Below, piece by piece: positions 1-56,230 of a DNA stretch of 56,230 bases. The translations under genes and the position numbers were made by a program. The notes under the pieces are model-generated. The model was given only the letters and a program-made list of their open reading frames with translations. It was not told the origin of the DNA and ran no database searches. Position 1 is the stretch's first letter; each line of letters opens with the position of its first letter. Source of the DNA: a virus (lineage: Duplodnaviria; Caudoviricetes); the IMG/VR virus record IMGVR_UViG_3300023443_000297, positions 1-56,230 of that record; one strand, written 5' to 3'.

Positions 1-144
1 TTCCATTAGGCGGTACCCCCCTTGCTGGTTAAGGTTGTCCATAATGTCCATTGTGCCTTAGTCCTCTATACTGGTATCGTACTGGGTGTAGGGAGTGCTA
101 GAGGTGGCAAAGGCGATGATCTCCGGGTCTACACCGCGCTCTAG
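1..144. repeat. Terminal direct repeat, copy 1 (circular assembly overlap)
   Basis: Bases 1-144 are identical to 56087-56230, and ORF 58..432 continues across the junction. Confidence 0.95.
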
Positions 145-432
145 TAGCTTATCCGGGTTGGTACGTGGTTGGCCGGGGCGATTGCTGGGTCTGACTTGAG
201 CACCGTTGAAATCGAACCAGGTACTAGCATCGCCTTCCTGATGGTACTCATCTTGGTATTTGATTGCCATATTAGTTAGGGCTTCTTTAAGCACCTGTTC
301 TTCCTTTTCAAGGGATCTTCGGGCTGCTTTGATAGCGTGGTACTTGCGGATTACCTGTTCTATTTCAGGATCTATAAGTTGGATTGTGGATTTGGTATTA
401 GCTTTCTTGGTTTTGGACTTAGGTGTTGACAT
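58..432 (-). CDS. Hypothetical phage protein with a coiled-coil segment
   Basis: 124-aa ORF with AAGGGGG RBS, tightly packed in the operon. Confidence 0.7.
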   Translation of the reverse strand: MSTPKSKTKKANTKSTIQLIDPEIEQVIRKYHAIKAARRSLEKEEQVLKEALTNMAIKYQDEYHQEGDASTWFDFNGAQVRPSNRPGQPRTNPDKLLERGVDPEIIAFATSSTPYTQYDTSIED

Positions 433-673
433 TATATCCCCCTTTATTAAACCCTAGCCTAATCTGAGCAGCACCACATAAGCACACTGGACATGGAACA
501 ACCGACTGAGAATTGGCTTTAACTTCTAAAACGGTCTCATCATGGACCTGGAATGCCAATGTGCTACTCTCCACAACAAAATCTCGTGACAACAACTCCC
601 CACAATTGCACCGAAATTTTACAGTAATAACATCGCCTTTTGTTGGATTAGATGGTGGATTCTGTTTCTGCAT
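419..673 (-). CDS. Small Cys-rich (zinc-ribbon-like) protein
   Basis: CNCG and CPVC motifs; GGAGG RBS before the ATG at 673. Confidence 0.6.
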   Translation of the reverse strand: MQKQNPPSNPTKGDVITVKFRCNCGELLSRDFVVESSTLAFQVHDETVLEVKANSQSVVPCPVCLCGAAQIRLGFNKGGYNVNT

Positions 674-718
674 AGTATCGCCTCCATATGGCCTTGTGAT
701 GATCCCAGTTCCTGTCAA

Positions 719-1039
719 TCATATGGTGTGGGTTAGCCAGTCCCAGATTCTTCTAAGGCCCTTCTGTTGTTTTTCTTGTTCCTTTTGTAGTTTCATCCTC
801 CAGAACAGGACATCGCGCATCAGTTCGAATTGCCGCAGTAAGTGGGTATTGCTTGGAGTCAGCCCTCTGTAATACTCTCCATCTTGGATAAATACCTCAC
901 CTCCACTGCTGCTGCAGTCCAGGATAGTGCGACCGGTGAAGTCGAACCCAGGCCTAGATCTCAGCCTGGCTATATAAACGTCTATTGATTCCTTTTCCTT
1001 TGCGAACCCTACTAGTGGCTCTTTCTCATACAATGTCAT
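719..1039 (-). CDS. Hypothetical protein
   Basis: Coupled to the polymerase stop by a TAATG overlap. Confidence 0.6.
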   Translation of the reverse strand: MTLYEKEPLVGFAKEKESIDVYIARLRSRPGFDFTGRTILDCSSSGGEVFIQDGEYYRGLTPSNTHLLRQFELMRDVLFWRMKLQKEQEKQQKGLRRIWDWLTHTI

Positions 1040-4000
1040 TAGGTTAGGCTACCCCATCTCTCACCGGATTTCAGTTCCACCTTCAGCGGCACCGATAACT
1101 GCATTACGCTTTCCATTACTGGCTTTATCATCTGACCTAGAACCTCTATGTAATCACACTCTACCTCTAGAATAAGCTCATCGTGAACCTGAAGCAGGAA
1201 TCTAAACCACGGTAATTGCCCTGTGTCTCTGAGTTGGAATAGCCTATTGGTGGCGAGTTTAATAATGGCCTGTGCTCCAGATTGGATCGGCATGTTACCC
1301 GCTGCTCTCTCCCCATCACTCCTAATGCGGCGGATAGGGCAGAATAGCTCAGGCATGTACCGGCGGCGACCTACCATGTCTTGAACATACCCCGTGCGTT
1401 TGGCAAAATTGATATGGTGCTGAAGGAATTGCTTGATTTCTGGAAAGCGTTGGTCATATTCTACCAGAAGCCTAGCGCAATCATCAAGGGACCAGCCGTC
1501 AATGCCCTCCTCTATCAGGCCCTCATACAGACCAAGAGGGGTTATGCCGTAGATTATACTGAAGTTCATCCTCTTGGTGGGGTACCGGTATCTAGTCTGT
1601 TTAGCCTCTTCATATGGTATTCCAAACAGGATAGATGCGGTATAGGTGTGAATGTCCAGGTCTTCCCAGAATAACTGAATCAGGCGTTGGGATGCGGATG
1701 CGTGGGCCATTAGACGCATCTCTATTTGCGAGTTATGAGTATAGACACCACAAGTTAGGGCAAACAATGAGCTAGCATTGTCAATTTCTATATCCCATAC
1801 CGGCAGCGATCCTATAGCCTCAACAGAGACAACCTTATGGTTTAACCCGTTCTTACGCGCCTGGTCACTACACCCTATGGAGCAGAACTTCGCCTTCTTA
1901 GAGGGTGAGGCATAGAAGTCAGCTTCACAACAGAAGCAGACTAACATGGGGCCTTTTCGTTTGCCAAAGTTGGGATTATTCTCACCAACATAACTTCTGC
2001 GTTTGGATAGGGCTATCCTTAACCTTTCTAGTCGCAGGGTATGATCCTGACGCGCATAGGACTCTCGACCATCAATAGACATGTGCTCAAAATTGGGAAG
2101 GTACTCTAAGTTGTCTGGGGAGTTATTATGCTTATCTCCATCTTTGTGTTGAGTAGAGTACCCCACTGGTAAAGGACCATAAGCCCACCTAGCTACTTCG
2201 CGATGTTCATAGGTGTAATTGAAATACGATCCGGTATACAGAGTAGTATAGCCATTACCGGCATAGCTGCGCCGCAATGGCATTAGTCTATTACCAGGGG
2301 ATAACTCTGAGGCGTGTTTCAATACTCCTGTATTGAGAGGTACCCTATGGTTAGGAGTACAGGTGAACTGCTCACCGTTGCTTAATTGAACCCGAATACA
2401 CGCCCGCTCGCCAGAATAAACCTTAGCTTTAACCTCAGAGATCATCGGCCTATTGTCACGATCAACGCTGTAGATAGGATCTCCCGGCTCCAACAATTCA
2501 ATCGGCACTTCACCTAAGGGAGTATCCACCCCTGTTCCCTCAGCCAAACAGTAGTCAGGAGCAAGGAACAGATACCCAGGTGGGGCACAGAAGCCATCAC
2601 GGATGCGTCTGCCATCCTCTGACCTGACTGGCATAGCTTGTAGGTTAACCGGGTCAGATGTGGTGAGGCGACCTGTAGCTCCCCGGGTGGCGCGGATTTG
2701 ACACCGGACCCTAGGAATACCTGCTGAGTCCATAACAGCTACACGGGGGAGGACATCAGCGTAGGAGGTCTTGGCCTTGAGTATCTGCCGGTAGTTTAGG
2801 ATCTCCTGAACTAGAGGAATAACCTCATTGGTAGTGGAGTTGCGGATCTTCTTCAACTCTCTATCGTCAGTGGAGGGCAAACCCGATTCTGAGCGTTTGG
2901 TAATTGGGTGGTTTAGCTTACTGCTCCCGTACACCAGATCAGCTACCTGAACCGGGGAGTTGGGATTGAATGAGCCGTAGCCTCCAAGAATAGCACAGTC
3001 AGCAGCGGAAGTATTAAGGCGATCAGTAAACTCTGCGGATAGTTGATTAAGGTGAGGGGGATCTATAGGCATACCGACATCCATCATCTCATTGATAATA
3101 GGCAGCGTGGGAAGATCTATAGCATTGAGTACAAACCCAAGACCAGCCTCATCTATCATATGGAGTAGTTCATCACGGACCCTGATAGTGGCGTCAGCAT
3201 CTCTGCTTGAATAGTAAATAGTATCGGAGTAGGGTACTTGCTCTAGGCTGGCGTCCAGCATCAGGCCTATAACTGATTCTACTTCGGTTCGTTCTGCTGA
3301 GTTAATATCATGCCATCTGCGGTAAGCATCTGTTTCTGGTTTAGTTTCCACATCATCAAGTATCTTCCAGATTTTTCTACTGATATGATTAGGCTTCCTA
3401 TCGTGTGTGAGGATACTACCTGATTTGTTGTCCCATTTGGTCTCAGTTATGGGATCAGGCTCGGCCCAGAGTTCGCATTCCGCTGCCTGAAGATAGTCTA
3501 GAGCCTTACCCTGGCGGTACTGATGAACATAATCATCATAGGAATACATCTCCATCCCACACAGACGGAATGCCAGCTCCTTTAACCCCTGAGGTAACCC
3601 AAGCAGATAGGCTGCTACCATCGTGTCTATGAATCTGGGAATGCGAATGAATTGAGCATCGTAGAGGTAGTTGTGGACGGTTACTAAACTGGTATCAGGT
3701 ATGGCGGTTTGTGGATCTGGAATTAGATGGGCTGGGATAAACCAGGCTGTACCTGGTTCCATACTCACCTGAACTGACCAGAGCTTAGATCCGCCATCTG
3801 GCCCTGGAACAGTCTCAGTGTCCAGGGAGAACTCTGGCTGAGATAGCAAGGCAAGAGCGTGTTCGGTGCTGGTAACCTCTATGTAGTCAGGGTTGGGGTA
3901 GAGATCTGTCGGTACGAATGATAGGGGATCAGCGCCGTTGAGGATCTCCTTTAAGACTCGGAAATCATCGAAGACCATTCTCAGTTGCGGTGTAGTGTAA

Positions 4001-4536
4001 AGCCCTGCAGCAGGGTGATAGGTTGGAAATATTAGCGTGGGTGGAGCACCGTATTCCTCCTCAGCTGAATTACCGACGTACCGCCACTGTGGTATAGAAT
4101 GTGTGTGCTCTACGGTGAGGGTATCATCACCAAGGAGATAACGTATGGCTGGCTGACCCATTGCTACGATGATTTGAGGGCGAATTATATCTATTTCGAG
4201 TTGCAGCCATTTGTCAGCACAGTAGCGGGTGTCGGCTAGGGATGGTGTAGCATTGTTTCTGGGGCGGCATCGGACGCAATTGGTGATGTAGACTTCAGAT
4301 CGCAGGAGATTGAGATAGCTGAGAAGGTCATCCAGCATAATACCAGCAGCGCCGGTGAAGGGTATGCCATCCTCGTCTTCGTGCTCGCCGGGAGCCTCAC
4401 CAACGAAGAGAATGCGGGAGTTGATGGAGCCGATACCGGGTACAGGGCCAAGGCATGATTGGCGCAGATAGCAGTCAGTGCAGGATCGGACTGCTTGGTA
4501 GATGGGGAAGGTTGATGTTGAGGTTTGGGTTACCAT
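1039..4536 (-). CDS. polA: Family A DNA polymerase with N-terminal family-4 uracil-DNA glycosylase domain, 3'-5' exonuclease and an intein
   Basis: UDG motifs CxxC, GEAPG, TNCVRCRP, YHPAA; exonuclease LDTET; TGRL; motif A DY/SQIEMR split by the intein; motif B KRMNFSIIYG; motif C LQVHDEL. Confidence 0.95.
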   Translation of the reverse strand: MVTQTSTSTFPIYQAVRSCTDCYLRQSCLGPVPGIGSINSRILFVGEAPGEHEDEDGIPFTGAAGIMLDDLLSYLNLLRSEVYITNCVRCRPRNNATPSLADTRYCADKWLQLEIDIIRPQIIVAMGQPAIRYLLGDDTLTVEHTHSIPQWRYVGNSAEEEYGAPPTLIFPTYHPAAGLYTTPQLRMVFDDFRVLKEILNGADPLSFVPTDLYPNPDYIEVTSTEHALALLSQPEFSLDTETVPGPDGGSKLWSVQVSMEPGTAWFIPAHLIPDPQTAIPDTSLVTVHNYLYDAQFIRIPRFIDTMVAAYLLGLPQGLKELAFRLCGMEMYSYDDYVHQYRQGKALDYLQAAECELWAEPDPITETKWDNKSGSILTHDRKPNHISRKIWKILDDVETKPETDAYRRWHDINSAERTEVESVIGLMLDASLEQVPYSDTIYYSSRDADATIRVRDELLHMIDEAGLGFVLNAIDLPTLPIINEMMDVGMPIDPPHLNQLSAEFTDRLNTSAADCAILGGYGSFNPNSPVQVADLVYGSSKLNHPITKRSESGLPSTDDRELKKIRNSTTNEVIPLVQEILNYRQILKAKTSYADVLPRVAVMDSAGIPRVRCQIRATRGATGRLTTSDPVNLQAMPVRSEDGRRIRDGFCAPPGYLFLAPDYCLAEGTGVDTPLGEVPIELLEPGDPIYSVDRDNRPMISEVKAKVYSGERACIRVQLSNGEQFTCTPNHRVPLNTGVLKHASELSPGNRLMPLRRSYAGNGYTTLYTGSYFNYTYEHREVARWAYGPLPVGYSTQHKDGDKHNNSPDNLEYLPNFEHMSIDGRESYARQDHTLRLERLRIALSKRRSYVGENNPNFGKRKGPMLVCFCCEADFYASPSKKAKFCSIGCSDQARKNGLNHKVVSVEAIGSLPVWDIEIDNASSLFALTCGVYTHNSQIEMRLMAHASASQRLIQLFWEDLDIHTYTASILFGIPYEEAKQTRYRYPTKRMNFSIIYGITPLGLYEGLIEEGIDGWSLDDCARLLVEYDQRFPEIKQFLQHHINFAKRTGYVQDMVGRRRYMPELFCPIRRIRSDGERAAGNMPIQSGAQAIIKLATNRLFQLRDTGQLPWFRFLLQVHDELILEVECDYIEVLGQMIKPVMESVMQLSVPLKVELKSGERWGSLT
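1732..2550 (-). mobile_element. Intein (273 aa) with HNH homing endonuclease, inserted in PolA motif A
   Basis: Begins CLAEGT, block B CTPNHR, HNH motif HREVA...HKDGDKHNNSPDNL, ends THN followed by +1 Ser; excision restores DYSQIEMR. Confidence 0.93.
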
Positions 4537-41610: not shown

Positions 41611-41791
41611 AATTACCCCTTGCCGCAGTAATCACACTGAACCGGTGTTCCATCTGATCTCGTAGCGTCTTCACAAATCTTACATACGGGAGGACACTGC
41701 TGCTTGACTGTATAAGGGTGGTCATCTTCTGGCTGATCACACTGGACGCACCTGCCTGTTGTTTCAACCATTAGACCTGTCTGTCTGAATC

Positions 41792-42742: not shown

Positions 42743-42743
42743 G

Positions 42744-43840: not shown

Positions 43841-43842
43841 TA

Positions 43843-44229: not shown

Positions 44230-45113
44230 TAGTGATAATGTCCCCCCGCTAAACGTCCAATGGGAAACTCTACTTCAATAGTATTAGTAATAGGCCAAGA
44301 ACCGGGCTCATCTACAGCCTCTGAGATCTTAACCGTATACTGCTGCATCTCTGCCTCGCTAGGTTGGACTTGCTTAACACCAGTACCCAGGGCTTGCTCT
44401 ACCTCTCGGATCATGGTAACCATCTGTTTGAATTGGCTGGGCTCTATGGCTACTCGATGGTCCGGGCCTAATCTCATCCGATCATCGGTGAAGTGCTTCT
44501 CTATAATCCTAGCACCCAAAGCAACAGCGGCTACAGGACAGGTGATCCCGGGGGTATGATCCGACAGCCCGTACATCCCGTTGTGCTGGTAATTCAGTCT
44601 AGGCATGGCCCTAAGATTGGCTTCTGATATAGGAGCAGGATAAGCTGAGGTACAATGAAGCACAGCCCAGAGCGAGTCCCCCAGTACGTCGATTGACTTA
44701 ACCACCTGATCCTGATTCATCATACCGGTACTAAGTATGGTGGGTTTAGCGGTCTGCCTGACTTGGGATAGGTACTGAAGGTCCTGGGCCTCGAAGCTGG
44801 CTATCTTGTGCGTGCTCACATAAGGATCCACAGTCATAAGTCCCCAGGCATCGTAAGCAGTACACAGGAAATCAATACCCAGGGCGTTAGCATAATCCCT
44901 AAGCACCGGTAGCCAGGAATCGGGCATTTCGTTTGCTTTGTACATGGCCCAGTATTCAGAGGCGTTTCGGCGCTCAACTAGGGAATCAGCCCTGAAGAAT
45001 TGGAATTTGACTGCACTTGCCCCTGCTTCTTTTGCTAGGTAGATCAGGTCCTTAGCTCGGTATAGGATGGAGTCGTGGTTGCTGGCTATTTCGGCGATTA
45101 TGTAGGTTTTCAT
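44229..45113 (-). CDS. NeuB/PseI/SpsE-family nonulosonate synthase, copy 1
   Basis: IIAEIASNHD, VKFQ, KIASFE, LSTGM, LHCTSAYPA, GLSDHT, IEKHFT, GPDH. Confidence 0.92.
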   Translation of the reverse strand: MKTYIIAEIASNHDSILYRAKDLIYLAKEAGASAVKFQFFRADSLVERRNASEYWAMYKANEMPDSWLPVLRDYANALGIDFLCTAYDAWGLMTVDPYVSTHKIASFEAQDLQYLSQVRQTAKPTILSTGMMNQDQVVKSIDVLGDSLWAVLHCTSAYPAPISEANLRAMPRLNYQHNGMYGLSDHTPGITCPVAAVALGARIIEKHFTDDRMRLGPDHRVAIEPSQFKQMVTMIREVEQALGTGVKQVQPSEAEMQQYTVKISEAVDEPGSWPITNTIEVEFPIGRLAGGHYH

Positions 45114-45550
45114 ATCAGGTATCGCTATCCTTATCACCGCCAAAGGTTGCTGCAATCCAAGCCAGTGTCAGTTGTAGAGTGTGCTCAGAGTTTATGTCAC
45201 CTTGGTCCATAATAGTCTGGTACATGATAGCAATAGCCTTTCCTATAAGACGGGAAGACTCTTCCATCTGCTCCAATGCTGGTAAATCTAAATTAGGCAT
45301 CATTAGTTCTGACTCCCTCTTAATCTGGGGTTAGGCATCTCAGGCATTGGGTTTCCCTCTCAATCTTGGGTTGTGCTGGCTACAGTATTTGTTGGCAAAC
45401 TCCCTAGCCTGGGATATGACTCGAAGGAATATAAACCGTTGGAATCCGCAATCAGGGTAAGGGCAGGTGGATAAGATGTACCTACCACCACCAACGCGAC
45501 CTACTTCGCTAGCCTTCTTGATTGTATACTGAGATTCTATAGCCTCAATA

Positions 45551-46333
45551 TCATATATCAATTCTCACCTCGCCCGGGCCGAATTGGACATCCATCACAC
45601 CCTGAATCCTAGCACGTTCTGCCTTCATTACCCGAGACAGAGACAGTGATAAGGATCCCGCTATGCTTATGGGTGTTGGAATATCATCAAGGTCAGCTTC
45701 AGTAAGATAGGCCATAAGGTGCCTGGCTGCTTCAGGTGTAGTCATGCCAGAGGATTCCGGTCTCAACATCCGCACTGTATCAGGATGGGAACCTGGTCTG
45801 TGAAGCTGAGCATTACGGATATCATCTACAGAGTAAGGATCTATTGTAACCCAGGCCCCGAATCCATCCACTACTATCATCTTACACCATTGCAGAGATA
45901 GCGATCCTTTTCGTATGTTAATAGCCTTGGGACCAAGATTAGATATGCAAAGGTCTACTCTTGGCCATTTATCTAGGTCATCCGGGTCTAGCCACTGCAC
46001 TTCAATTTCATTTACTCTGAATACCTCAGCGGCAAAGTCCGCTGCCCTAGAGTCTATTTCAGTAGCGAATATTCTAACAGCGCCGAGTAGGGACGCCGCA
46101 ACCGATACTATTCCGGTACCGGCACCTAGGTCGATAATGGACCTCATTTCTGAACCTGATTCGTGTTCCAGATGCAGGGCTTGCAGGGTAGACTTGGTGC
46201 TTTGATGCCATCCACCGCCATGAATACCGGGTGGGATTGGGGGCATGATTATGGGCAGTCTAGACTGGAGATGGTCTGGTATGAGGTGGATTTGATGTAG
46301 ACTGACTATAAGGAACGGGTCGAGATCTATCAT
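45551..46333 (-). CDS. PrmA-like class I SAM-dependent methyltransferase
   Basis: GWHQST...IIDLGAGTGIVSVAA.LLGA...ATEID. Confidence 0.75.
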   Translation of the reverse strand: MIDLDPFLIVSLHQIHLIPDHLQSRLPIIMPPIPPGIHGGGWHQSTKSTLQALHLEHESGSEMRSIIDLGAGTGIVSVAASLLGAVRIFATEIDSRAADFAAEVFRVNEIEVQWLDPDDLDKWPRVDLCISNLGPKAINIRKGSLSLQWCKMIVVDGFGAWVTIDPYSVDDIRNAQLHRPGSHPDTVRMLRPESSGMTTPEAARHLMAYLTEADLDDIPTPISIAGSLSLSLSRVMKAERARIQGVMDVQFGPGEVRIDI

Positions 46334-46545
46334 GACGGCCTCTTAATCCCACACTTAATTGATGAGCACTGGCACCTAATTCCCATTACACTCGTTATAC
46401 CACCGGATTCGTTTATAAACTCAGCCCAAGTAGGGAATCTCGGAGACCCACAAACAGAGCACCGACCGTACGAGCATTCACAATCGATATCGGTCAGGTC
46501 CACTATAGGAACGGAGTTGAGACTTTGAGTGCTGTACTGCATACA

Positions 46546-47343
46546 TTAACCCCTAAGGTCTCCTGCCGCTACCCACTGTTGACGCCATTCACTTGACTTA
46601 GCTTCTGGGTTCTCCTCAACGGTTTGTAGCCATTCGTGCATCTTCTCACCTAGCCTCGTGCCCGCTATTTCAATAGGGTGTCCTGGTGCTCTCTCATCGA
46701 TTATCTCTAGTACAGAGCGGCCTTGAAGATTAGGTACATGGAGACCCGGGTTGAATAGGTGTTCAAGAACGAAGTCAGCTGCCTCCTCTACAGTCCACCA
46801 GAATCTTGTCATGTTAGGGTGGGTAACGGGTATTGGGATGTCTTCAAGCACACATTTATCTATTATATCAAGTAGGCTACCCCTGCTACCTAGGACGTTG
46901 CCGTAGCGGACCACACTAAGACCGGCACTTAGGAACAGACGCTCAGCTAGTGCTTTTGTCAGGCCGTAGACGTTGATCGGGTATACTGCCTTATCCGAAC
47001 TGGTGAGCACCGCCGGAGCTGAACAATCGTAGGCAGCATCGGAGACGTTCCGTGATCCTGTTACGTTAGTTTCAATGAATTCGCTGGGGTTCTGCTCACC
47101 GGTATCTACTTGCTTTAGGGCTGCTGCATGGATAACGGCATCCACACTACTAACAGCGGCTAGGACTCTTACAGAGTCTCGGACATCCCCCAACATGAAC
47201 TCAGCATCGGGGAATGCCTGGCGCTGCTGGGATTGCTTGTACTCATCACGGCTGAAGATGACTGGTGTATTACTACCGAGGAGCAGCTTGCTAGTAAGAG
47301 CATGGCCTAGAGTACCGGTGCCGCCTGTTATTAGAACTCTCAT
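46546..47343 (-). CDS. UDP-GlcNAc 4,6-dehydratase (PseB/FlaA1-like SDR)
   Basis: ITGGTGTLG, FSRDEYKQ, HAAALKQV, SSDKAVYP.N.YG.TK, RYGNVLGSRGS, MTRF, GEKMHE. Confidence 0.9.
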   Translation of the reverse strand: MRVLITGGTGTLGHALTSKLLLGSNTPVIFSRDEYKQSQQRQAFPDAEFMLGDVRDSVRVLAAVSSVDAVIHAAALKQVDTGEQNPSEFIETNVTGSRNVSDAAYDCSAPAVLTSSDKAVYPINVYGLTKALAERLFLSAGLSVVRYGNVLGSRGSLLDIIDKCVLEDIPIPVTHPNMTRFWWTVEEAADFVLEHLFNPGLHVPNLQGRSVLEIIDERAPGHPIEIAGTRLGEKMHEWLQTVEENPEAKSSEWRQQWVAAGDLRG

Positions 47344-51280: not shown

Positions 51281-53776
51281 CTACTCGCAACTGGTGAATC
51301 CACACGCAAGGCAGACATCGCAACCCCCTCTCTTGGTCATTACTTTTTGCGAGCACTTGGGGCATATTGCGCCAAGATTACTAGTTCCATCAAAATAGGA
51401 ATCCAAAATAGTCTTAGCCGCTTTGGGTGTTATTTCTTCCTCGTCCACGTCTACACTACCCTCCTCATTACCAAGCTCACCAGCTATAGCATAGCTCAGA
51501 GCATCATAAACCGAGGTCACTAACCGACCATCTACCCAGGCTGAATGACCACAATCGATACCCCTAAGTTGTTCAATTATGACACTGGAATCCACATCAG
51601 ATCGCAAAGCCATAGATATCAGACGGCCTACTGCTGTCGCTCCTGCTCTGACACAGGGGTTATTCTCTGCTGGAGTTAGGAATACCTCTACTGGCTGACC
51701 ATCATTTAGGCTGGTGTTAACAGTGAAGAACCAGGAGCCATGACCGGTATTGGAATGGATGGTATGGCCGGGGAGGGATCGCGGTCTGGGTTGGGGCTTG
51801 CTATGGGTATGGGTGTGGGTTTGTTGGGACTGCGACTTACTGATGTGGTCTGCAGGTTCATAGTTAGGATTCCATTGGTCCCAAGTCCGGACTGGCATAA
51901 CTGGTATAACTGGCATAACTGGCGCTGTCCAAGACTTAAACACTGGGAGATCAGATAACTCAATGGGTACATCGCCGGTGTTATGGATCTCAAAAGTCTT
52001 AAGCTCGGGCTTAGGGTTAGGTCGCCTACCGACCTCCTCAACTGAGCTAAGAGAGCTAAGGATCTGGGTCCCCTTGCTGTTGTCCCTATACACAGTGACG
52101 GCCTTACAGCCTAGATTATGTGCGAGCTTGAAAGCGTCACTGATGTCCTTTACAGTAGCAGATTCGGGTAGGTTTATGGTTTTGCTAATGCTGTTCGTAA
52201 TTCCAGATTGCCAAGCTGCCTGCATTCGGACGTGGTTCTCTGGGGATATCTGGTGAGCAGTGCGGAATAGGTTCAGTTTCTCCTTTCCGATTTGTGACTC
52301 TATCTCTCCAGGACTCATTAGATAATAGGGGCCTTCAGGCAGCATTTCCCATAGAGGTGCTGGGCATTCTATGAAGGTAGACCTATTTTCGCCATCGGAG
52401 TGCCAGATAGCCTTGCGTTCCCACATGAGAGCGTAATGGGGCTCAATACCGCTGGAGCAGCCTGCGATTATGGAGATGCTACCGGTAGGAGCGATGCAGG
52501 TGACTGAGGAATTGCGATAACCGTATTCCGCTATTACATCGGAGTTTCTTCTGAGACTGGACTCAGGCCAGTTGGGGAATGCACCCTTTTCCTTAGCCAG
52601 TGCAGCAGAGGCATCCCAGGCGGTAATGGTTATGAACTGGCTGAGAGTCTTGGCTAGGTCTAGAGCGGTATTGGAGTCATACTTGATGCCCATACGCACT
52701 AGGAGATCAGCCCAGCCCATCACACCAAGACCTATGCGACGGGTAAGTTGATTCATCTCGGAGAACCGGGCAACTGGGAATTGGTTGACATCTATCACGT
52801 TGTCTAAGAACCGGACTGCTGTATAGATATCGTCCTCTAATAGAGCATAATTAATTACAGTGTCCCCAGTAGGGACAAGGCGGTCCAAAGTAGCATAGAG
52901 GCTGAGGTTGAGGGAGCCTAGGTTACAGCTAGAGCCATCCTCTAGGAATTCCTCACCGCAGGGGTTGGAGGACTGGATAGGGCCTAGATTGGCATTGGGG
53001 GCATCTTCGTGCACCCGGTCCATGAACACCACACCAGGATCACCGGTAGCCCAGGCTGATTGACAGATGGCATCCCATATCTCTTTGGCATCTACAGTTC
53101 TCACCACATCGCCGTTCCTAGGGTTAATAAGAGATACGAATTCTCCCATTGCCCCCTTAGACAGAGTATCCATGAACTCATCGGTGATCTGCACACTGAT
53201 GTTGAAATTAGACAGGGTATCAGTTGGCTTCAGGCACTTATCCTTGCAGTGGATGAACTCCATTATGTCAGGGTGAGTGCAGTGAAGTTGAGCCATATGC
53301 GCCCCCTGTCTGATCGCACCTTGAGTAAAGGTGCTGCCTCCGACTGAGTACCAATTGAGAGTGCGTACCGGTCCACAAGCACCATCCTCATGAGGACCTA
53401 CTTTATCACCAGCTGGGCGAAGGCGAGATAGACCAAATCCTACACCACCGCCAGAAGCCTCAATTAGGGCCATCTGTGCACCTACTTTGATGATGGACTC
53501 CAGGGTATCGGTGGGTGAGTCCACGAAGCAGGCAGATAGACAGTGGGTTGAGTTGGGAACGCCAGCATGTGCTAGGGTAGGGGTATTGGGGAGGAACCGG
53601 AGGGAGGACATGAGGTTGTAGAACTTGTCCTCCCACTTATCCACCCTATTTGGAACCGTCTCAGCGCCAGCTACATGCCTAGCTACACGGCGGAACATAT
53701 CATCCGGAGTCTCACCGTGCTGTATGTAGGGGCGCTGGTAGATAACCTCAAGAGCATTACGAGTTAGCTGGACCAT
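51281..53776 (-). CDS. nrdJ: Class II (B12-dependent) ribonucleotide reductase with C-terminal TSCPD/Zn domain
   Basis: PNTPTL, SACFV, SNPCGE, CNLGSLNL, IAPTGSIS..GCSSGIEP; no beta subunit in the genome. Confidence 0.92.
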   Translation of the reverse strand: MVQLTRNALEVIYQRPYIQHGETPDDMFRRVARHVAGAETVPNRVDKWEDKFYNLMSSLRFLPNTPTLAHAGVPNSTHCLSACFVDSPTDTLESIIKVGAQMALIEASGGGVGFGLSRLRPAGDKVGPHEDGACGPVRTLNWYSVGGSTFTQGAIRQGAHMAQLHCTHPDIMEFIHCKDKCLKPTDTLSNFNISVQITDEFMDTLSKGAMGEFVSLINPRNGDVVRTVDAKEIWDAICQSAWATGDPGVVFMDRVHEDAPNANLGPIQSSNPCGEEFLEDGSSCNLGSLNLSLYATLDRLVPTGDTVINYALLEDDIYTAVRFLDNVIDVNQFPVARFSEMNQLTRRIGLGVMGWADLLVRMGIKYDSNTALDLAKTLSQFITITAWDASAALAKEKGAFPNWPESSLRRNSDVIAEYGYRNSSVTCIAPTGSISIIAGCSSGIEPHYALMWERKAIWHSDGENRSTFIECPAPLWEMLPEGPYYLMSPGEIESQIGKEKLNLFRTAHQISPENHVRMQAAWQSGITNSISKTINLPESATVKDISDAFKLAHNLGCKAVTVYRDNSKGTQILSSLSSVEEVGRRPNPKPELKTFEIHNTGDVPIELSDLPVFKSWTAPVMPVIPVMPVRTWDQWNPNYEPADHISKSQSQQTHTHTHSKPQPRPRSLPGHTIHSNTGHGSWFFTVNTSLNDGQPVEVFLTPAENNPCVRAGATAVGRLISMALRSDVDSSVIIEQLRGIDCGHSAWVDGRLVTSVYDALSYAIAGELGNEEGSVDVDEEEITPKAAKTILDSYFDGTSNLGAICPKCSQKVMTKRGGCDVCLACGFTSCE

Positions 53777-53981
53777 TAGGGTATTTTCCTCCTAGTGCGT
53801 TTAGCTTTCTTAGTATTGGTCTGGTGCTGCCCCCGATAGGCTGGTCATAGAAACTGCTGCCGCAATGGGGGCATTTATCTGGGATCTCAACTCTGCTATC
53901 CCAACAGTGACCACACCGAACACAGTGGTGATAATCGTGACAACCTGAATCAGAGTCCAGTTGAGCCATAACCCTTGTCAC
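53757..53981 (-). CDS. Small zinc-ribbon protein
   Basis: CVRCGHCW...CPHCGS. Confidence 0.55.
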   Translation of the reverse strand: MTRVMAQLDSDSGCHDYHHCVRCGHCWDSRVEIPDKCPHCGSSFYDQPIGGSTRPILRKLNALGGKYPNGPANS

Positions 53982-54381
53982 CTCTATCGGATTGGGATAA
54001 TTTGTCCACTAGCAGAACATTGGGGGTTACCAGGGGAATAAGTACCAACTGAGCTATGCGATCCCCCACTTTGATATGAACATCCTCACCGTTTAGGTTA
54101 AGGACTGTGGCATTGACAGGTCCCCGATAACCATTATCCAAGACGCCAGTCATTACGTGCAGACCGCGAACCTGTAGAGATGAGGATCTGCCTGCTATAA
54201 GTCCCCACGTTCCAACGGGAGGCTCAATGTTAAGATTGTGCCCTATATTGACAACTATGTTAGGGGGGATAATGTAGTCCTCTGCAACATAGAGATCATA
54301 GCCACAGTCGCCTAGGTGGGACTTGGTTGGTAAGTGGAAATAGATGCCATGGTTAATCACACTGACTTTGATAGTTAACAT
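53950..54381 (-). CDS. dut: Trimeric dUTPase
   Basis: GYDL, GRSS, GVLDNGYRG, RIAQL, RGDKGYGSTG. Confidence 0.93.
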   Translation of the reverse strand: MLTIKVSVINHGIYFHLPTKSHLGDCGYDLYVAEDYIIPPNIVVNIGHNLNIEPPVGTWGLIAGRSSSLQVRGLHVMTGVLDNGYRGPVNATVLNLNGEDVHIKVGDRIAQLVLIPLVTPNVLLVDKLSQSDRGDKGYGSTGL

Positions 54382-55439
54382 TATAAAGCTGCTCCCACTC
54401 TGCACCGTGTAGCCAATTGCGGAGTTATTATACCAGGCCCAGTGCTAACCCATTTGATATCAATATCGCAGACCTCCTCAAGAGAATCCAATGTCTTACC
54501 GGCGAACTCTCTAATATCATCCTCGTTAGTGGAGTTCTTTAGAAATGGGTGTAGATAGTCTAAGAAGGTCAGGCAAACAAAATCAGGCCTGCATACCTTA
54601 ACCATACGGCGGATCTGGTCAGGGTCGAACTCACCGACACGCCTGACTCTGCCAGTGACTGTAGTGTATTCTTCAGGCTGGCCTATGCTACCCCAGGTGG
54701 TCTCATGTGCCATTGGACCTGAGGTACCTGCAACACGTATAGGGAAGGTTCGGACCACTGCAATTACCTGGTGATCAAGTCGGGAGGATAATCCGGCGTC
54801 ATTTAGGATCTGACCTGGGGTGACATCACGGCTGGTAGTGTACGGGTAATGTCCGGAATGAGTCAGGCTGAGATCGAAGCCTTGGGTAGACTCAATGATG
54901 ATGTCCTTACCCGAGTCGTATATGGAGTTGAGTTCATCCGAAACTGAGCCTACTTTGAAGTTGGGATTGGTAAGGTGCTGGGCTAGTTGGGCTGACCTTC
55001 TTGTGTGGTTGGCTCGGGCACTACCGATGCCCTCCTTAGTTGAGGATATAGAGGACATCATGGTTGATTTCTGTTCTTCGATTTTGTCACTGTCTTGGAT
55101 GATGATTGCAGACCGGTCAATAACTAACCTGGGAACTAACCTGGGAGGACGATCTTCTAACAAAATACTGGTCTGGGCAAGCTCATTGGTAAGAACCTTG
55201 TAATCTATCAGGGAACCAGGCCCGATGAACAGTGGGACATCAGGCAAGTGCCAAGCGCAGGGGATTTGCCGCATCTTATAGGGGATCTGGTTATAGGTCA
55301 TGGTATGTCCAGCGTTGGGTCCTCCTGTGCGAACCACTGCACCAAGAGTGCCAGAGGAATAGAGCTTGGTAGCGAGATAGGCTACGAATTCACCCTTGCC
55401 CTCAGAACCAGCTTGGCCTCCCATTACTAAGTAGATCAC
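54381..55439 (-). CDS. purZ: PurZ0-like adenylosuccinate-synthase homologue (putative N6-succino-2-amino-dAMP synthase)
   Basis: GQAGSEGKG (Ser in place of PurA Asp13), NAGHT, STKEGIG, RTFPIRVAGTSGP, TTVTGRVRRV, LTFLD. Confidence 0.75.
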   Translation of the reverse strand: MIYLVMGGQAGSEGKGEFVAYLATKLYSSGTLGAVVRTGGPNAGHTMTYNQIPYKMRQIPCAWHLPDVPLFIGPGSLIDYKVLTNELAQTSILLEDRPPRLVPRLVIDRSAIIIQDSDKIEEQKSTMMSSISSTKEGIGSARANHTRRSAQLAQHLTNPNFKVGSVSDELNSIYDSGKDIIIESTQGFDLSLTHSGHYPYTTSRDVTPGQILNDAGLSSRLDHQVIAVVRTFPIRVAGTSGPMAHETTWGSIGQPEEYTTVTGRVRRVGEFDPDQIRRMVKVCRPDFVCLTFLDYLHPFLKNSTNEDDIREFAGKTLDSLEEVCDIDIKWVSTGPGIITPQLATRCRVGAAL

Positions 55440-55508
55440 CGTGTCACCTCCTGTAGTATTTAGTTTATCTCAAGCTCATGCTGATCAACACCGGGCCGTT
55501 TGATTATC

Positions 55509-55820
55509 CTAGCTTCCATTTCGCACCTTTTGTGCCTCTTGTGCCTCTTGCCTCAAGAGCCGGTAGTTAACGGCATCAGCGTAGTCATCATCTTCAAAGC
55601 CAAGCCATTCCTCAACACTACGGTCATCATGTATGTACTTGATAGTACCTTTCACCATGTTCTGTGCCAGCCTCAGTGCGAATTGCTCTATCAACCTAAG
55701 CTTAGGTTGGAGCCGGTCGTATTCATCATCTGTTAGGCCGAGACCGGATGCAGTTATGAGGACACGGAAGTTCTCGCTATCGCAAGCCTCGCTTAATCTG
55801 GATTCCCAATCCTTGGTCAT
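55509..55820 (-). CDS. MazG-like all-alpha dNTP pyrophosphatase candidate
   Basis: KGTIKY...EEWL..EDDDYADAVNY; adjacent to purZ. Confidence 0.5.
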   Translation of the reverse strand: MTKDWESRLSEACDSENFRVLITASGLGLTDDEYDRLQPKLRLIEQFALRLAQNMVKGTIKYIHDDRSVEEWLGFEDDDYADAVNYRLLRQEAQEAQKVRNGS

Positions 55821-55831
55821 GCCTTCCCCCT

Positions 55832-56137
55832 TTAGGTTATCTTCTCACCGTCCATGATCTCCTGAAGGTCCTTAAGAACATCGAATTCATAGATGAATTG
55901 AAGAGTAGACGCTATGCCAGATATCATACCAAAAACGGCATCAGGACACCTATCGTACTCTTCGGCCTCTACTAACAATTTAGGTATGTAAACCCTAAGA
56001 GCCTCATACAAATGCTCATTGGGCGTATACCCATGCTGCTGGCCCCCTTCAGTTGCGTGTTTCATTAGATCGGCTACTGTTCTAGTTTCCATTAGGCGGT
56101 ACCCCCCTTGCTGGTTAAGGTTGTCCATAATGTCCAT
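55832..56137 (-). CDS. Hypothetical all-alpha protein
   Basis: 101-aa ORF upstream of the MazG-like gene. Confidence 0.5.
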   Translation of the reverse strand: MDIMDNLNQQGGYRLMETRTVADLMKHATEGGQQHGYTPNEHLYEALRVYIPKLLVEAEEYDRCPDAVFGMISGIASTLQFIYEFDVLKDLQEIMDGEKIT

Positions 56138-56230
56138 TGTGCCTTAGTCCTCTATACTGGTATCGTACTGGGTGTAGGGAGTGCTAGAGGTGGCAAAGGC
56201 GATGATCTCCGGGTCTACACCGCGCTCTAG
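56087..56230. repeat. Terminal direct repeat, copy 2
   Basis: Identical to 1-144; implies a unit genome of 56,086 bp. Confidence 0.95.

What the first reader, a model, noticed from the sequence alone, without database searches (positions are those of the whole stretch)
53950..56137. PurZ0-like gene with MazG-like neighbour, dUTPase and RNR: possible 2-aminoadenine (Z) genome
Seen: the PurA-fold protein has GSEGKG instead of GDEGKG, RTFPIRVAGTSGP, and a TFLD motif retaining Asp. It lies between a MazG-like ORF and dut/nrdJ. Known: Asp13-to-Ser marks PurZ (dGMP substrate), and the GTP-using PurZ0 clade keeps the guanine-specifying Asp. Z phages usually encode dATP-removing DatZ and MazZ. No HD-domain DatZ is visible, so 55509..55820 and/or 55832..56137 may be non-canonical dATP/dGTP hydrolases. 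Z-DNA together with a sialylated capsid would be a remarkable double armour.
Basis: partly seen in the sequence, partly recalled or inferred. Interest (0 to 1): 0.82.

Follow-up and report, generated by a model that had tools for sequence, protein, structure and literature searches.

The report
PurZ0-type aminoadenine module with DutZ
This complete 56-kb uncultured phage carries a gene pair of the kind that known phages use to replace adenine with 2-aminoadenine in their DNA, so it is probably one more such phage, although nobody has measured its DNA chemistry.

Summary
ORF 54381-55439 (-) is a PurA-fold protein with GSEGKG, RTFPIRVAGTSGP and TFLD. No HD/DatZ, MazG, DUF550, DUF5664 or NDT gene exists anywhere in this complete DTR genome.

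The PurZ0-like reading is supported. The protein sits in an all-phage clade that also holds the classical PurZ and actinophage PurZ0 references. It forms its own metagenomic subclade there and keeps the Asp that only classical PurZ has lost.

The "MazG-like neighbour" is not supported. Both small ORFs (55509-55820, 55832-56137) failed every family, profile and fold test. A relative of the first occurs in a complete phage with no PurA-like gene.

The missing dATP/dGTP-clearing function is better assigned to the "dut" gene (53950-54405), which overlaps purZ (TAATG). It falls in the clade holding all 35 PurZ-linked Duts sampled, including Ghobes DutZ, which has been assayed. Of the 20 IMG/VR Duts most like it, 19 lie beside a PurZ.

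This is therefore a PurZ0 + DutZ Z-cluster next to a UDG-PolA and a class II RNR. That kind was described in 2026 and this scan has met it repeatedly on other DNA.

Caveat: cellular paralogues carry the same Ser, and no chemistry exists.

The parts
54381..55439 (-). PurZ0-like succino-amino-deoxyadenylate synthase candidate (352 aa; P-loop GSEGKG; NTP-site motif T-F-L-D-Y)
   Evidence: PF00709 at 1.8e-42 and phrog_1211 at 9e-66. The best NCBIfam model is NF038379 PurZ at 236.9 bits, below its cut-off of 300. The best PDB match is 7VF6, a PurZ0, at 1e-43. Trees; residues.
53950..54405 (-). DutZ-like dUTPase-fold dNTP pyrophosphatase candidate. The ORF runs from GTG at 54405 (151 aa). The more likely start is ATG at 54381, which overlaps the purZ stop as TAATG and gives 143 aa.
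   Evidence: PF00692 at 2.2e-31. It lies inside the 37-row clade that holds all 35 PurZ-linked Duts, including Ghobes DutZ. Of the 20 most similar IMG/VR Duts, 19 are PurZ-linked. TIGR00576 scores 99.5 bits, just below its cut-off of 102.55.
55509..55820 (-). 103-aa ORF directly upstream of purZ. It belongs to an unnamed family with the motif MxKGTxKY...W...DD..D..NY and has no known function. It is not MazG-like by any test.
   Evidence: 180 homologues at E<=1e-3. No shared Pfam family among 70 members. hhalign against DUF5664 gave 1.2% probability. The AF2 model has pLDDT 53. A relative occurs in a PurZ-less complete phage.
55832..56137 (-). 101-aa ORF that starts inside the terminal repeat. 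It is a near-orphan of unknown function.
   Evidence: Two weak 76-aa hits only. No family hit. The AF2 model has pLDDT 56 and is helical. The Atlas search gave nothing usable.
53757..53981 (-). 74-aa zinc-ribbon ORF between dut and nrdJ
   Evidence: Weak zinc-ribbon Pfam hits, the best at 2.6e-4 and below the cut-off. No relative in any of the 166 loci held at that point.
51281..53776 (-). Class II (adenosylcobalamin-dependent) ribonucleotide reductase with a C-terminal TSCPD domain
   Evidence: PF02867 at 1.5e-111 plus PF00317 and PF12637. TIGR02504 NrdJ_Z scores 550.8 bits, above its cut-off of 399.95.
1039..4536 (-). UDG - 3'-5' exonuclease - family A DNA polymerase fusion, interrupted by an intein with an HNH domain. 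On the circular map it lies five small ORFs upstream of purZ.
   Evidence: PF00476 at 5.5e-87, PF03167 at 5.7e-29, plus PF01612, HNH_3 and Intein_splicing. The closest PurZ loci have PolA just upstream of purZ, and the one checked, L087, is also a UDG-exo-PolA fusion.
58..1039 (-). Three small ORFs (58-432, 419-718, 719-1039) between PolA and the cluster on the circular map. Function unknown.
   Evidence: No Pfam or NCBIfam hits. No relatives in the fetched loci.
56087..56230 (.). 144-nt direct terminal repeat, identical to positions 1-144
   Evidence: Exact match found. The record is classed as DTR with 100% completeness.

Best explanation
The phage carries a minimal PurZ0-type Z-cluster and most likely replaces some or all adenine in its DNA with 2-aminoadenine.

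Proposed route (all steps inferred from sequence, none measured):
1. The Dut-like enzyme (DutZ type) hydrolyses dATP to dAMP, which removes the competitor. It also hydrolyses dGTP to dGMP, which supplies the substrate, and still clears dUTP.
2. The PurZ0-like synthetase condenses dGMP with aspartate. GTP is probably the phosphate donor, because the guanine-specifying Asp is kept.
3. Host PurB and host kinases finish dZTP.
4. The class II RNR feeds the deoxynucleotide pool.
5. The neighbouring UDG-exo-PolA polymerase copies the genome.

The two small upstream ORFs are unexplained passengers of the replication module. They are not the hydrolases.

Shown here: the sequence features, the clade memberships, the conserved purZ-dut gene pair, and the absence of DatZ, MazZ, DUF550, DUF5664 and NDT. 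Inferred: every enzymatic activity and the presence of dZ in the DNA.
For: PurZ side:
- Ser replaces Asp13, and Pro, Trp and Thr occupy VpPurZ positions 233, 252 and 262. Every PurZ and PurZ0 reference in the alignment has these residues, and none of the four canonical PurA sequences does.
- In IQ-TREE trees of 82 rows, the protein lies in a 52-row clade made only of phage and metagenome sequences. That clade holds phiVC8, S-2L and SH-Ab PurZ and also Ghobes, Wawa and Goodman PurZ0. Support is SH-aLRT 98 in the quick tree and UFboot 86 / SH-aLRT 81 in the careful tree. All 20 sampled cellular paralogues fall outside it.
- phmmer scores are 172, 158 and 144 bits to the three PurZ0 references, against 120, 90 and 79 bits to the three PurZ references.
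- Asp at VpPurZ position 297 is kept in 26 of 26 of the window's subclade, 13 of 13 of the PurZ0 clade and 4 of 4 PurA. It is lost in 3 of 3 classical PurZ.

Dut side:
- purZ and dut overlap as TAATG.
- Of the 80 viral PurZ loci, 51 have a Dut downstream on the same strand. In 24 it is immediately adjacent, and 20 of those are stand-alone proteins of about 144 aa that abut or slightly overlap the purZ ORF.
- When IMG/VR Duts are ranked by likeness to this one, 19 of the top 20 and 31 of all 80 have a PurZ within 5 kb.
- In a 91-row Dut tree, one 37-row clade (SH-aLRT 93) holds all 35 PurZ-linked Duts. It includes Ghobes DutZ, a Wayne-type DmtZ-DutZ and this protein, plus one unlinked row. The linkage label changes only twice on the tree.
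- Ghobes DutZ and Wayne DmtZ-DutZ hydrolyse dATP and dGTP to the monophosphates, and all 98 PurZ0 genomes surveyed carry dutZ (PMC12884076, sections 20 and 24).

Context:
- The nearest relatives L087, L091 and L094 have the order PolA, small ORF(s), PurZ, NDT-Dut fusion. Pfam confirmed the UDG-exo-PolA architecture for L087.
- An enrichment study of restriction-resistant aquatic phage DNA found PF00709, PolA, dUTPase, NDT and UDG domains associated with dZ contigs (bioRxiv 10.1101/2025.10.22.683976, sections 9 and 11).
Against: - No chemistry exists for this phage or for any member of its 26-row PurZ subclade. That subclade is separate from both characterised clades, and the branching order among the subclades is not resolved.
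- The NCBIfam PurZ model scores below its curated cut-off (236.9 against 300). The archaeal-type PurA model scores almost the same, 231.4 bits.
- The same Ser, Thr and Asp residues occur in cellular paralogues of unknown function. 394 were found, and 5 of 5 genomes checked also have a normal PurA. These residues therefore do not prove Z synthesis.
- The Dut keeps all five canonical dUTPase motifs. It shares only 6 of the 14 columns that set the PurZ-linked clade apart, and it has a long end branch of 0.8.
- There is no DmtZ/NDT, DUF5664, DatZ or MazZ, so dATP exclusion would rest on one enzyme plus the polymerase.
- The PolA is only distantly like the known DpoZ enzymes (17-25 bits).
Confidence: 0.65

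Rival explanations
1. The pair manipulates the nucleotide pool without making a fully Z-substituted genome. It might give partial A-to-Z replacement. It might instead act as a dGMP/dGTP-consuming takeover or counter-defence function, like whatever the cellular PurZ-like operons do.
For: - Cellular paralogues with the same active-site residues sit in a different conserved operon, so this enzyme type has at least one role outside Z phages. The operon is an RNase_H_2 + AAA kinase-like protein, the PurZ-like gene, then a DCD-like protein. The first and last are present in 57 and 52 of 80 loci.
- The phage lacks DatZ, DmtZ and DUF5664.
- Its polymerase is not close to a known DpoZ.
- It encodes an N6/N4 DNA methylase.
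Against: - The protein is inside the phage clade and not among the cellular sequences.
- The cellular loci almost never have Dut or PolA nearby (1 of 80 each), whereas this gene has both.
- PurZ0 phages with DutZ but no DmtZ exist among the surveyed Z phages: 98 carry DutZ and 85 carry DmtZ.
Confidence: 0.2
2. It is an auxiliary purine-synthesis gene, a true adenylosuccinate synthetase that uses IMP, beside an ordinary dUTPase and RNR that simply boost dNTP supply.
For: - The archaeal short PurA structures (2D7U, 5K7X) match almost as well as the PurZ0 structure (7e-43 against 1e-43).
- The NCBIfam archaeal PurA model scores 231.4 bits.
- The Dut keeps all canonical motifs.
Against: - The catalytic Asp13 is Ser. 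According to PMC12884076 section 24, Asp13 is 99% conserved among 251 PurA-group sequences.
- All four canonical PurA rows fall outside the clade in the tree.
- The Dut groups with the PurZ-linked Duts and not with the 54 unlinked ones.
Confidence: 0.05
3. One reading: one or both small ORFs (55509-55820, 55832-56137) are non-canonical dATP/dGTP hydrolases that stand in for DatZ and MazZ.
For: - They sit directly upstream of purZ.
- They are about the size of S-2L MazZ (105 aa) and are predicted to be all-helical.
- The 55509-55820 family has conserved acidic residues (DD..D..NY).
- One of 70 family members touches PF18909 at E=0.0022.
- ORFs of 83 and 103 aa occupy the same slot in L094 and L087.
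Against: - No hit to MazG, DUF550 or DUF5664 by Pfam, PHROGs, NCBIfam or six-frame search.
- hhalign against DUF5664 gave 1.2% probability.
- No significant match to S-2L MazZ or any reference Z protein.
- No relative in any of the 166 loci held at that point, which included 80 viral and 80 cellular PurZ loci.
- The one IMG/VR relative found lies in a complete 45.8-kb phage with no PF00709 gene.
Confidence: 0.07

Closest known systems
PurZ0 + DutZ (+/- DmtZ, DUF5664-1) Z-cluster of actinophages: Gordonia phages Ghobes and Archimedes, Arthrobacter phage Wayne (PMC12884076; PDB 7VF6)
   Same: - A short PurA-fold enzyme with Ser at the Asp13 position and the NTP-site Asp kept.
- A Dut-clade gene downstream on the same strand.
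- A family A polymerase nearby.
- No DatZ or MazZ.
- The best PDB and phmmer matches are PurZ0, and the Dut lies in the same clade as Ghobes DutZ.
   Different: - The synthetase belongs to a separate 26-row subclade of aquatic or metagenomic sequences, not the actinophage PurZ0 clade.
- The P-loop is GSEGKG rather than GSEAKG, and the NTP motif is T-F-L-D-Y rather than [ST]-[FM]-[AL]-D-Q.
- There is no DmtZ and no DUF5664.
- The polymerase is a UDG fusion with an intein.
- Identity to the phage records is at most about 37%.
Classical PurZ + DatZ + MazZ/DUF550 + DpoZ cluster (cyanophage S-2L, Vibrio phage phiVC8, Acinetobacter phage SH-Ab 15497)
   Same: - Ser at the Asp13 position.
- Phe and Tyr at VpPurZ positions 295 and 298.
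- Position next to the replication genes.
- Membership of the same all-phage clade.
   Different: - Classical PurZ has GSTGKG and has replaced the NTP-site Asp with Asn or Gln. The window keeps both the Glu and the Asp.
- No DatZ, MazZ or DUF550 anywhere in this genome.
- None of the 80 viral loci fetched with this subfamily's patterns has a DatZ or MazZ either.
Cellular PurZ-like three- or four-gene operon (RNase_H_2 + AAA kinase-like, PurZ-like, DCD-like, sometimes dNK). It is unnamed in the literature I searched but has been noted before by this scan.
   Same: - The same short PurA fold with GSEGKG, Thr at position 262, and Asp and Tyr in the NTP motif.
- It is also followed by a dUTPase-superfamily gene.
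   Different: - The partners are different and no PolA is present.
- The sequences fall outside the phage clade.
- The genomes that carry it also have a normal PurA.
Archaeal short adenylosuccinate synthetase (Pyrococcus horikoshii PurA; PDB 2D7U, 5K7X)
   Same: About the same length and nearly the same match score, 7e-43.
   Different: The archaeal enzyme has GDEGKG with the catalytic Asp (alignment). The window has Ser.

Membership tests
PurZ/PurZ0 (succino-amino-deoxyadenylate synthase) | PurA fold | tested here: met
   PF00709 at 1.8e-42. Matches PDB PurZ0, PurZ and PurA chains.
PurZ/PurZ0 (succino-amino-deoxyadenylate synthase) | Catalytic Asp13 of PurA replaced by Ser | tested here: met
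   GSEGKG at residues 11-16. Cellular paralogues share it, so it is not sufficient on its own.
PurZ/PurZ0 (succino-amino-deoxyadenylate synthase) | [quoted passage not shown] | tested here: inconclusive
   The T262 equivalent is Thr. The F12 equivalent is Ala, not an aromatic residue.
PurZ/PurZ0 (succino-amino-deoxyadenylate synthase) | Phylogenetic placement with characterised phage enzymes and apart from PurA | tested here: met
   The 52-row all-phage clade includes the PurZ and PurZ0 references. Support is SH-aLRT 98 and UFboot 86 / SH-aLRT 81.
PurZ/PurZ0 (succino-amino-deoxyadenylate synthase) | Score above the curated cut-off of NCBIfam NF038379 | tested here: not met
   236.9 bits against a cut-off of 300. 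It is nevertheless the best-scoring model.
PurZ/PurZ0 (succino-amino-deoxyadenylate synthase) | Uses dGMP, not IMP | not testable with these tools
   Needs an enzyme assay.
PurZ0 subgroup | NTP-site Asp retained (GTP-type pocket). That PurZ0 uses GTP is recalled from Tong et al. 2023, which is not in the library. PMC12884076 section 24 words the preferences the other way round. | tested here: met
   T-F-L-D-Y. Asp is kept in 26 of 26 of the subclade and 13 of 13 of the PurZ0 clade, and lost in 3 of 3 PurZ.
PurZ0 subgroup | Member of the monophyletic actinophage PurZ0 clade | tested here: not met
   The Ghobes, Wawa and Goodman references lie in a separate 13-row clade (SH-aLRT 100 in the quick tree; size confirmed). 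The window is in a distinct 26-row clade.
DutZ | Trimeric dUTPase fold with its five motifs | tested here: met
   PF00692 at 2.2e-31. Full-length alignments to solved dUTPases. Motifs visible.
DutZ | Placement in the monophyletic Dut group of PurZ0 phages | tested here: met
   The 37-row clade (SH-aLRT 93) holds all 35 PurZ-linked Duts, including Ghobes DutZ. 19 of the top 20 nearest IMG/VR Duts are PurZ-linked.
DutZ | Clade-specific residues | tested here: inconclusive
   6 of 14 differential columns are shared exactly, and some others conservatively. No published specificity determinants were found in the sections read.
DutZ | Hydrolyses dATP and dGTP to dNMP | not testable with these tools
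   Needs an enzyme assay.
MazZ / MazG-like, DUF550, DUF5664 (for ORFs 55509-55820 and 55832-56137) | Match to the family profile | tested here: not met
   No hits by Pfam, PHROGs or NCBIfam. Six-frame searches for PF03819, PF04447 and PF18909 found nothing at E<=1. hhalign gave 1.2% probability.
DatZ (HD dATP triphosphohydrolase) | HD / HD_3 / YfbR-like domain anywhere in the genome | tested here: not met
   No matches at E<=1.
DpoZ (Z-selective family A polymerase) | Family A polymerase with a 3'-5' exonuclease encoded near purZ, and membership of a DpoZ clade | tested here: inconclusive
   PolA and the exonuclease are present near purZ, and 58 of 80 viral PurZ loci have a PolA. Similarity to known DpoZ is only 17-25 bits. 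No polymerase tree was made.
Class II ribonucleotide reductase (NrdJ) | Score above the curated cut-off of TIGR02504 | tested here: met
   550.8 bits against 399.95.

The most novel reading that the evidence does not exclude
The window's synthetase represents a third, mainly aquatic lineage of phage PurZ enzymes. Its NTP pocket combines the guanine-specifying Asp of PurA and PurZ0 with the Phe/Tyr pair that stacks on adenine in ATP-using PurZ. It may therefore accept both GTP and (d)ATP, which would make it a living intermediate on the path from PurZ0 to PurZ. In this lineage a single stand-alone DutZ, translationally coupled to purZ, plus a UDG-fused polymerase, would be enough to exclude adenine. 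This would be the smallest Z-genome kit known.
Probability: 0.2. Interest if true: 0.6.

Novelty: new member of a known kind. Interest (0 to 1): 0.4.

Why it matters
If the DNA does contain Z, three things follow.

- This phage extends the PurZ0 + DutZ route, so far characterised only in actinophages, to an uncultured lineage. The nearest Dut from a named phage comes from a lake-water Curtobacterium phage that also carries a PurA-like gene.
- It would show that two coupled genes beside a polymerase may suffice, without DatZ, MazZ, DmtZ or DUF5664.
- Its mixed NTP-pocket signature makes it a useful enzyme for working out how the phosphate-donor preference changed between PurZ0 and PurZ.

The practical lesson for annotation is twofold. 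A "dut" next to a short Ser-type PurA should be read as a DutZ candidate. And the Ser alone is not diagnostic, because cellular operons share it.

The finding itself is not rare. [quoted passage not shown] This scan already holds 22 notes on such modules in at least 20 genomes.

Tried and rejected
- MazG-like reading of the small ORFs. Tested with Pfam, PHROGs and NCBIfam and with six-frame family searches. Also tested by phmmer against S-2L MazZ, phiVC8 gp26, the SH-Ab DUF5664-DUF550 protein, Wawa gp50 and other neighbours of known Z clusters; nothing was significant.
- Further tests on the 55509-55820 family. A profile of the family against the PDB gave only an uncharacterised protein, 4HR1, at E=9e-4. 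hhalign against a 22-sequence DUF5664 alignment gave 1.2% probability. The two ESM Atlas look-ups scored under 0.9 with no named family. All negative.
- Structure prediction. pLDDT was 53 and 56, too low for a fold search, so none was run.
- Single-protein scan of viral contigs with the PurZ-like protein. It found nothing. The alignment-based scan worked.
- Megablast of 20 kb of the window against named phages. No match.
- A C-terminal MazG-looking extension that I thought I saw in one family member (P0139). Pfam did not confirm it.
- An NDT-looking ORF beside the 55509-55820 relative in L274. Pfam did not confirm it.
- tRNA scan. None found.
- Not done: a polymerase tree, restriction-site statistics, sequencing-run look-ups, read laying, and complex prediction.
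- Supplements were closed. The supplementary figures and tables of PMC12884076 (trees, Table S3) and of the bioRxiv preprint (residue table, DpoZ sequences) may bear on clade names and on the UDG-polymerase link.
- Tong et al. 2023, the original PurZ0 paper, is not in the library. What I say about GTP use is recalled. It is only indirectly supported by the preprint's introduction.

Full report
WHAT THE WINDOW IS. The window is a whole IMG/VR virus record of 56,230 nt, rated 100% complete, with direct terminal repeats. I confirmed an exact 144-nt repeat: positions 1-144 equal 56087-56230. Nearly all long ORFs, and every gene identified here, are on the minus strand. Because the map closes on itself, the genes upstream of the finding are those at the start of the window. 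In the direction of transcription the order is:
- UDG-exo-PolA with an intein and an HNH domain (1039-4536);
- three small ORFs (719-1039, 419-718, 58-432);
- a 101-aa ORF (55832-56137);
- a 103-aa ORF (55509-55820);
- the PurA-like gene (54381-55439);
- dut (53950-54405);
- a 74-aa zinc ribbon (53757-53981);
- a class II RNR (51281-53776).
The rest of the genome holds terminase, portal, protease and capsid genes, a nonulosonic-acid gene set, a helicase, an ERCC4 nuclease and a DNA methylase. There are no tRNAs. No named phage is close at the DNA level.

THE OBSERVATION. The 352-aa protein begins MIYLVMGGQAGSEGKG and contains RTFPIRVAGTSGP and LTFLDYL. It matches PF00709 (1.8e-42) and the PHROG annotated as the PurZ-type synthetase (9e-66). 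Its GTG start follows an AGGAGG. The RNR passes the NrdJ model's curated cut-off.

No HD, HD_3, YfbR-like, MazG, DUF550, DUF5664 or NDT domain is detectable in any of the six frames of the complete genome at E<=1. The absence of DatZ and MazZ is therefore real and not an edge effect.

WHAT THE SYNTHETASE IS.
- Solved structures. The best match is 7VF6 (1e-43), which PMC12884076 (Methods) names as the PurZ0 of Gordonia phage Archimedes. It is followed closely by archaeal short PurA (7e-43), then phiVC8 PurZ (9e-34), S-2L PurZ (4e-21) and E. coli PurA (2.5e-20).
- Named phages. 213 records match, all below 60% identity, with the best at about 36%.
- The 5.8-billion-protein collection. 4809 proteins match at E<=1e-10, and the best non-self match is 61% identical. 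Of the top 120, 116 carry GSE[GA]KG.
- NCBIfam. The PurZ model ranks first (236.9 bits) but below its cut-off of 300. The archaeal PurA model is almost level with it at 231.4 bits.

An alignment with references shows the following.
- PurA has GDEGKG, classical PurZ has GSTGKG, actinophage PurZ0 has GSEAKG, and the window has GSEGKG.
- At VpPurZ positions 14, 233, 252 and 262 the window has the Ser, Pro, Trp and Thr that every PurZ and PurZ0 reference shows there. None of the four canonical PurA sequences has any of them.
- At the F12 position the window has Ala. [quoted passage not shown]
- In the NTP-base motif, PurA reads T-K-[LA]-D-V, classical PurZ reads N-F-[CA]-[NQ]-Y, actinophage PurZ0 reads [ST]-[FM]-[AL]-D-Q, and the window reads T-F-L-D-Y.
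- The Asp in that motif is kept in 26 of 26 of the window's subclade, 13 of 13 of the PurZ0 clade, 20 of 20 cellular paralogues and 4 of 4 PurA. It is lost in 3 of 3 classical PurZ.
The Phe and Tyr flanking it are the residues that stabilise the adenine ring of ATP in VpPurZ. The pocket is therefore mixed.

TREES. A FastTree of 199 rows served as a first look. IQ-TREE runs on 82 rows followed, both with LG+G4: a quick search and a careful search with 1000 ultrafast bootstraps. The 82 rows were the window, 6 references, 4 canonical PurA, 15 nearest metagenome proteins, 36 viral-contig proteins and 20 cellular paralogues. They were a subset of the 200 rows I held.

The trees give a 52-row clade made only of phage and metagenome sequences (SH-aLRT 98; UFboot 86 / SH-aLRT 81). 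Inside it are four groups:
- classical PurZ (100);
- a 10-row viral group;
- a 13-row group containing Ghobes, Wawa and Goodman PurZ0 (SH-aLRT 100, quick tree);
- a 26-row group containing the window, of which the inner 25 rows have support 99/95.
The order of these groups is not resolved. All 20 sampled cellular paralogues and 6 'viral' contigs lie outside.

The protein is therefore in the phage PurZ/PurZ0 radiation but in its own lineage. It is PurZ0-like in character and is not a member of the named actinophage PurZ0 clade.

A scan of one genome per prokaryotic species found 394 relatives carrying Q[YF]GSEGKG. All 5 genomes I checked have a normal 420-450-aa PurA (512-621 bits) as well as this short paralogue. 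The paralogue sits in its own conserved operon:
- an RNase_H_2-superfamily protein, with an AAA-type kinase-like domain in two of the three checked, lies upstream in 57 of 80 loci;
- a DCD-like dUTPase-superfamily protein lies downstream in 52 of 80 loci;
- in one of the loci checked, a deoxynucleoside kinase follows.
Only 1 of 80 such loci has a Dut hit and 1 of 80 a PolA hit (flanks there were 4 kb, against 10 kb for the viral loci). So Ser at position 13 does not by itself mean a Z phage. The case rests on the clade and the partners.

THE PARTNER THAT MATTERS IS DUT. PMC12884076 (sections 19, 20, 24, 25 and passages of the Discussion) reports the following.
- PurZ0 phages lack DatZ and MazZ.
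- All 98 PurZ0 genomes carry a Dut-like gene, dutZ.
- Ghobes DutZ and the Wayne DmtZ-DutZ fusion hydrolyse dATP and dGTP to the monophosphates, with an apparent kcat about tenfold higher for dATP than for dGTP.
- 85 of the 98 also have the NDT-like DmtZ.
- DutZ forms a monophyletic group.

In the window, dut overlaps purZ. The ORF can start at GTG 54405, but an ATG at 54381 overlaps the purZ stop as TAATG and gives a 143-aa protein. That length matches the stand-alone Duts of about 144 aa that abut or slightly overlap purZ in related contigs.

Four tests place this Dut with the PurZ-linked Duts.
1. Forward linkage. Of the 80 viral contigs kept as the best of 245 PurZ relatives, 51 have a Dut downstream on the same strand. 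In 24 it is immediately adjacent (20 stand-alone, 4 fused to an N-terminal domain), in 25 it lies further downstream, and in 2 the ORF calls overlap oddly. The other 29 have none in the stretch held, and some of those contigs are truncated. With four Dut queries combined, the counts among the 80 are: Dut 52, PolA 58, DmtZ 16, DUF5664/DUF550 12, DatZ 0 and MazZ 0.
2. Reverse linkage. Of the top 20, 19 have a PurZ within 5 kb, and so do 31 of all 80. The linked ones crowd the top of the list.
3. Tree. In a 91-row Dut tree, a 37-row clade (SH-aLRT 93) holds all 35 PurZ-linked Duts. These include Ghobes DutZ, the Wawa DmtZ-DutZ, Goodman Dut and the Dut of lake-water Curtobacterium phage Parvaparticeps, which also has a PurA-like gene. 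The clade also holds the window and one unlinked row, L217, whose contig has only about 900 nt upstream of its Dut. The other 53 unlinked Duts are outside, including those of E. coli, two named phages and three cellular genomes. The linkage label changes twice on the tree.
4. Named phages. The highest bit scores all come from phages found by my PurZ search or shown to carry the gene: Parvaparticeps 108, Arthrobacter phages 100-106, Archimedes 100 and Keanu 95 (Streptomyces phages are among the PurZ hits, but I did not check Keanu itself). A Vibrio phage whose Dut sits by an RNR, with no PurA-like gene in the 3.4 kb viewed, scores 86. AP22 scores 61.

Against this, the window's Dut is a divergent member. 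Its end branch is 0.8. It shares 6 of the 14 clade-distinguishing columns exactly. It keeps all canonical motifs. It is just under the curated dut cut-offs (99.5 against 102.55).

SYNTENY WITH THE NEAREST RELATIVES. L087, L088 and L089 (48% identity) and L091 and L094 (42-45%) show the order PolA, one to several small ORFs, PurZ, and a 294-316-aa NDT-Dut fusion of the Wayne type. L088 ends before the fusion would appear and L089 holds only the end of its PolA. Pfam confirmed the UDG-exo-PolA architecture for L087. The window differs in having Dut without the NDT domain.

The preprint's enrichment of restriction-resistant aquatic phage DNA links PF00709, PolA and its exonuclease, dUTPase, NDT and UDG domains to dZ contigs (sections 9 and 11). 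That fits this gene set, although the window itself was not part of any experiment I can point to.

THE SMALL ORFS.
- ORF 55509-55820 looked like an orphan in the word-indexed search. The exhaustive HMMER search, however, found 180 relatives at E<=1e-3, 47 of them at E<=1e-10. They share the motif MxKGTxKY...W...DD..D..NY.
- No family or solved structure explains this ORF. Its profile hits nothing significant in any PurZ locus; the best is E=0.32, to the 103-aa ORF in the same slot of L087.
- Only one IMG/VR contig has a relative of it. That contig is a complete 45.8-kb DTR phage in which the gene lies among split PolA and exonuclease genes, and the phage has no PF00709 gene. The family therefore goes with replication modules and not specifically with Z synthesis.
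- ORF 55832-56137 has two weak 76-aa relatives and nothing else.
I treat both as unexplained.

VERDICT. The most likely reading (0.65) is a PurZ0-type Z-cluster reduced to two coupled genes, purZ0-like plus dutZ-like. The cluster lies beside a UDG-fused family A polymerase and a class II RNR, with host PurB and host kinases completing dZTP synthesis. It is a new member of a known kind. More than 2000 viruses have been predicted as Z phages from PurZ homology, most without proof (PMC13128860, Introduction).

This scan has already met PurZ0/DutZ modules and the cellular PurZ-like operon on other DNA: 22 notes in at least 20 genomes.

What is mildly new is the separate aquatic lineage of the synthetase with its mixed NTP pocket, and the very small accessory set.

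PAPERS, AND WHAT I SAW OF EACH.
- PMC12884076: passages found by term search, and sections 19, 20 and 24 in full.
- bioRxiv 10.1101/2025.10.22.683976: outline and abstract, sections 8 and 12 in full, and passages.
- PMC12783734 and PMC13128860: passages only.
- PMC8342488, PMC8065100 and PMC8599892: search listing and start of abstract only.
- Tong et al. 2023: nothing, recalled only.
One wording problem: PMC12884076 section 24 says PurZ0 and PurZ prefer 'ATP and GTP, respectively'. That is the reverse of what the preprint's introduction implies and of what I recall. I did not resolve this.

Noticed in passing
L007-L086 (genome contigs), e.g. L086:1950-6795, L069:1891-6152, L039:2361-6153: Cellular genomes of many phyla, bacterial and archaeal, carry a short Ser-type PurZ-like paralogue in a conserved operon. 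Upstream is an RNase_H_2-superfamily protein, usually with an AAA kinase-like domain. Downstream is a DCD-like dUTPase-superfamily protein, sometimes followed by a deoxynucleoside kinase. 394 relatives were found, and 5 of 5 genomes checked also have a normal PurA. Function unknown. This scan has noted it before as a possible defence or nucleotide-conversion cassette.
   Followed up: partly
window 1039-4536 (-): The family A DNA polymerase is fused to an N-terminal family-4-type UDG domain and a 3'-5' exonuclease. It is interrupted by an intein with an HNH endonuclease (Hint 663-706, HNH 777-819, splicing domain to 935). A UDG-PolA fusion also sits just upstream of PurZ in the nearest relative checked (L087). 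A preprint lists the UDG domain among those associated with dZ contigs.
   Followed up: partly
window 11411-12664 (-): A 417-aa N6/N4 DNA methylase (PF01555, 2e-26). If it is adenine-specific, its target in a Z-substituted genome would be worth asking about. Ghobes also has a DNA methyltransferase near its Z cluster.
   Followed up: no
window 38209-47343 (-): A nonulosonic (sialic-like) acid gene set lies between the terminase and the portal: two NeuB-family synthases, a CMP-sugar cytidylyltransferase, a class III aminotransferase, a Gfo/Idh/MocA oxidoreductase, a Polysacc_synt_2 dehydratase, a GNAT and a PrmA-like methyltransferase. I only saw the Pfam hits.
   Followed up: no
window 55509-55820 (-); P0125-P0273; L274:6001-6276: An unnamed family of small proteins of roughly 100-140 aa, with at least 180 members and the conserved motif MxKGTxKY...W...DD..D..NY. 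It has no Pfam family. One relative lies in the replication module of a PurZ-less 45.8-kb phage.
   Followed up: partly
window 54379-54383: The purZ stop and a dut start overlap as TAATG, which suggests translational coupling. Twenty related viral contigs have a stand-alone Dut of about 144 aa that abuts or slightly overlaps the purZ ORF.
   Followed up: yes
L003:7085-7648, L005:6217-6753 and 28 of 80 viral loci: An uncharacterised protein of about 180 aa (Ghobes gp51 / Goodman gp55 type) with no Pfam hit follows PurZ0 in many viral contigs. It is absent from the window.
   Followed up: no
PMC12884076, section 24: [quoted passage not shown] This appears to be the reverse of the usual description, in which PurZ uses ATP/dATP and PurZ0 uses GTP.
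   Followed up: no
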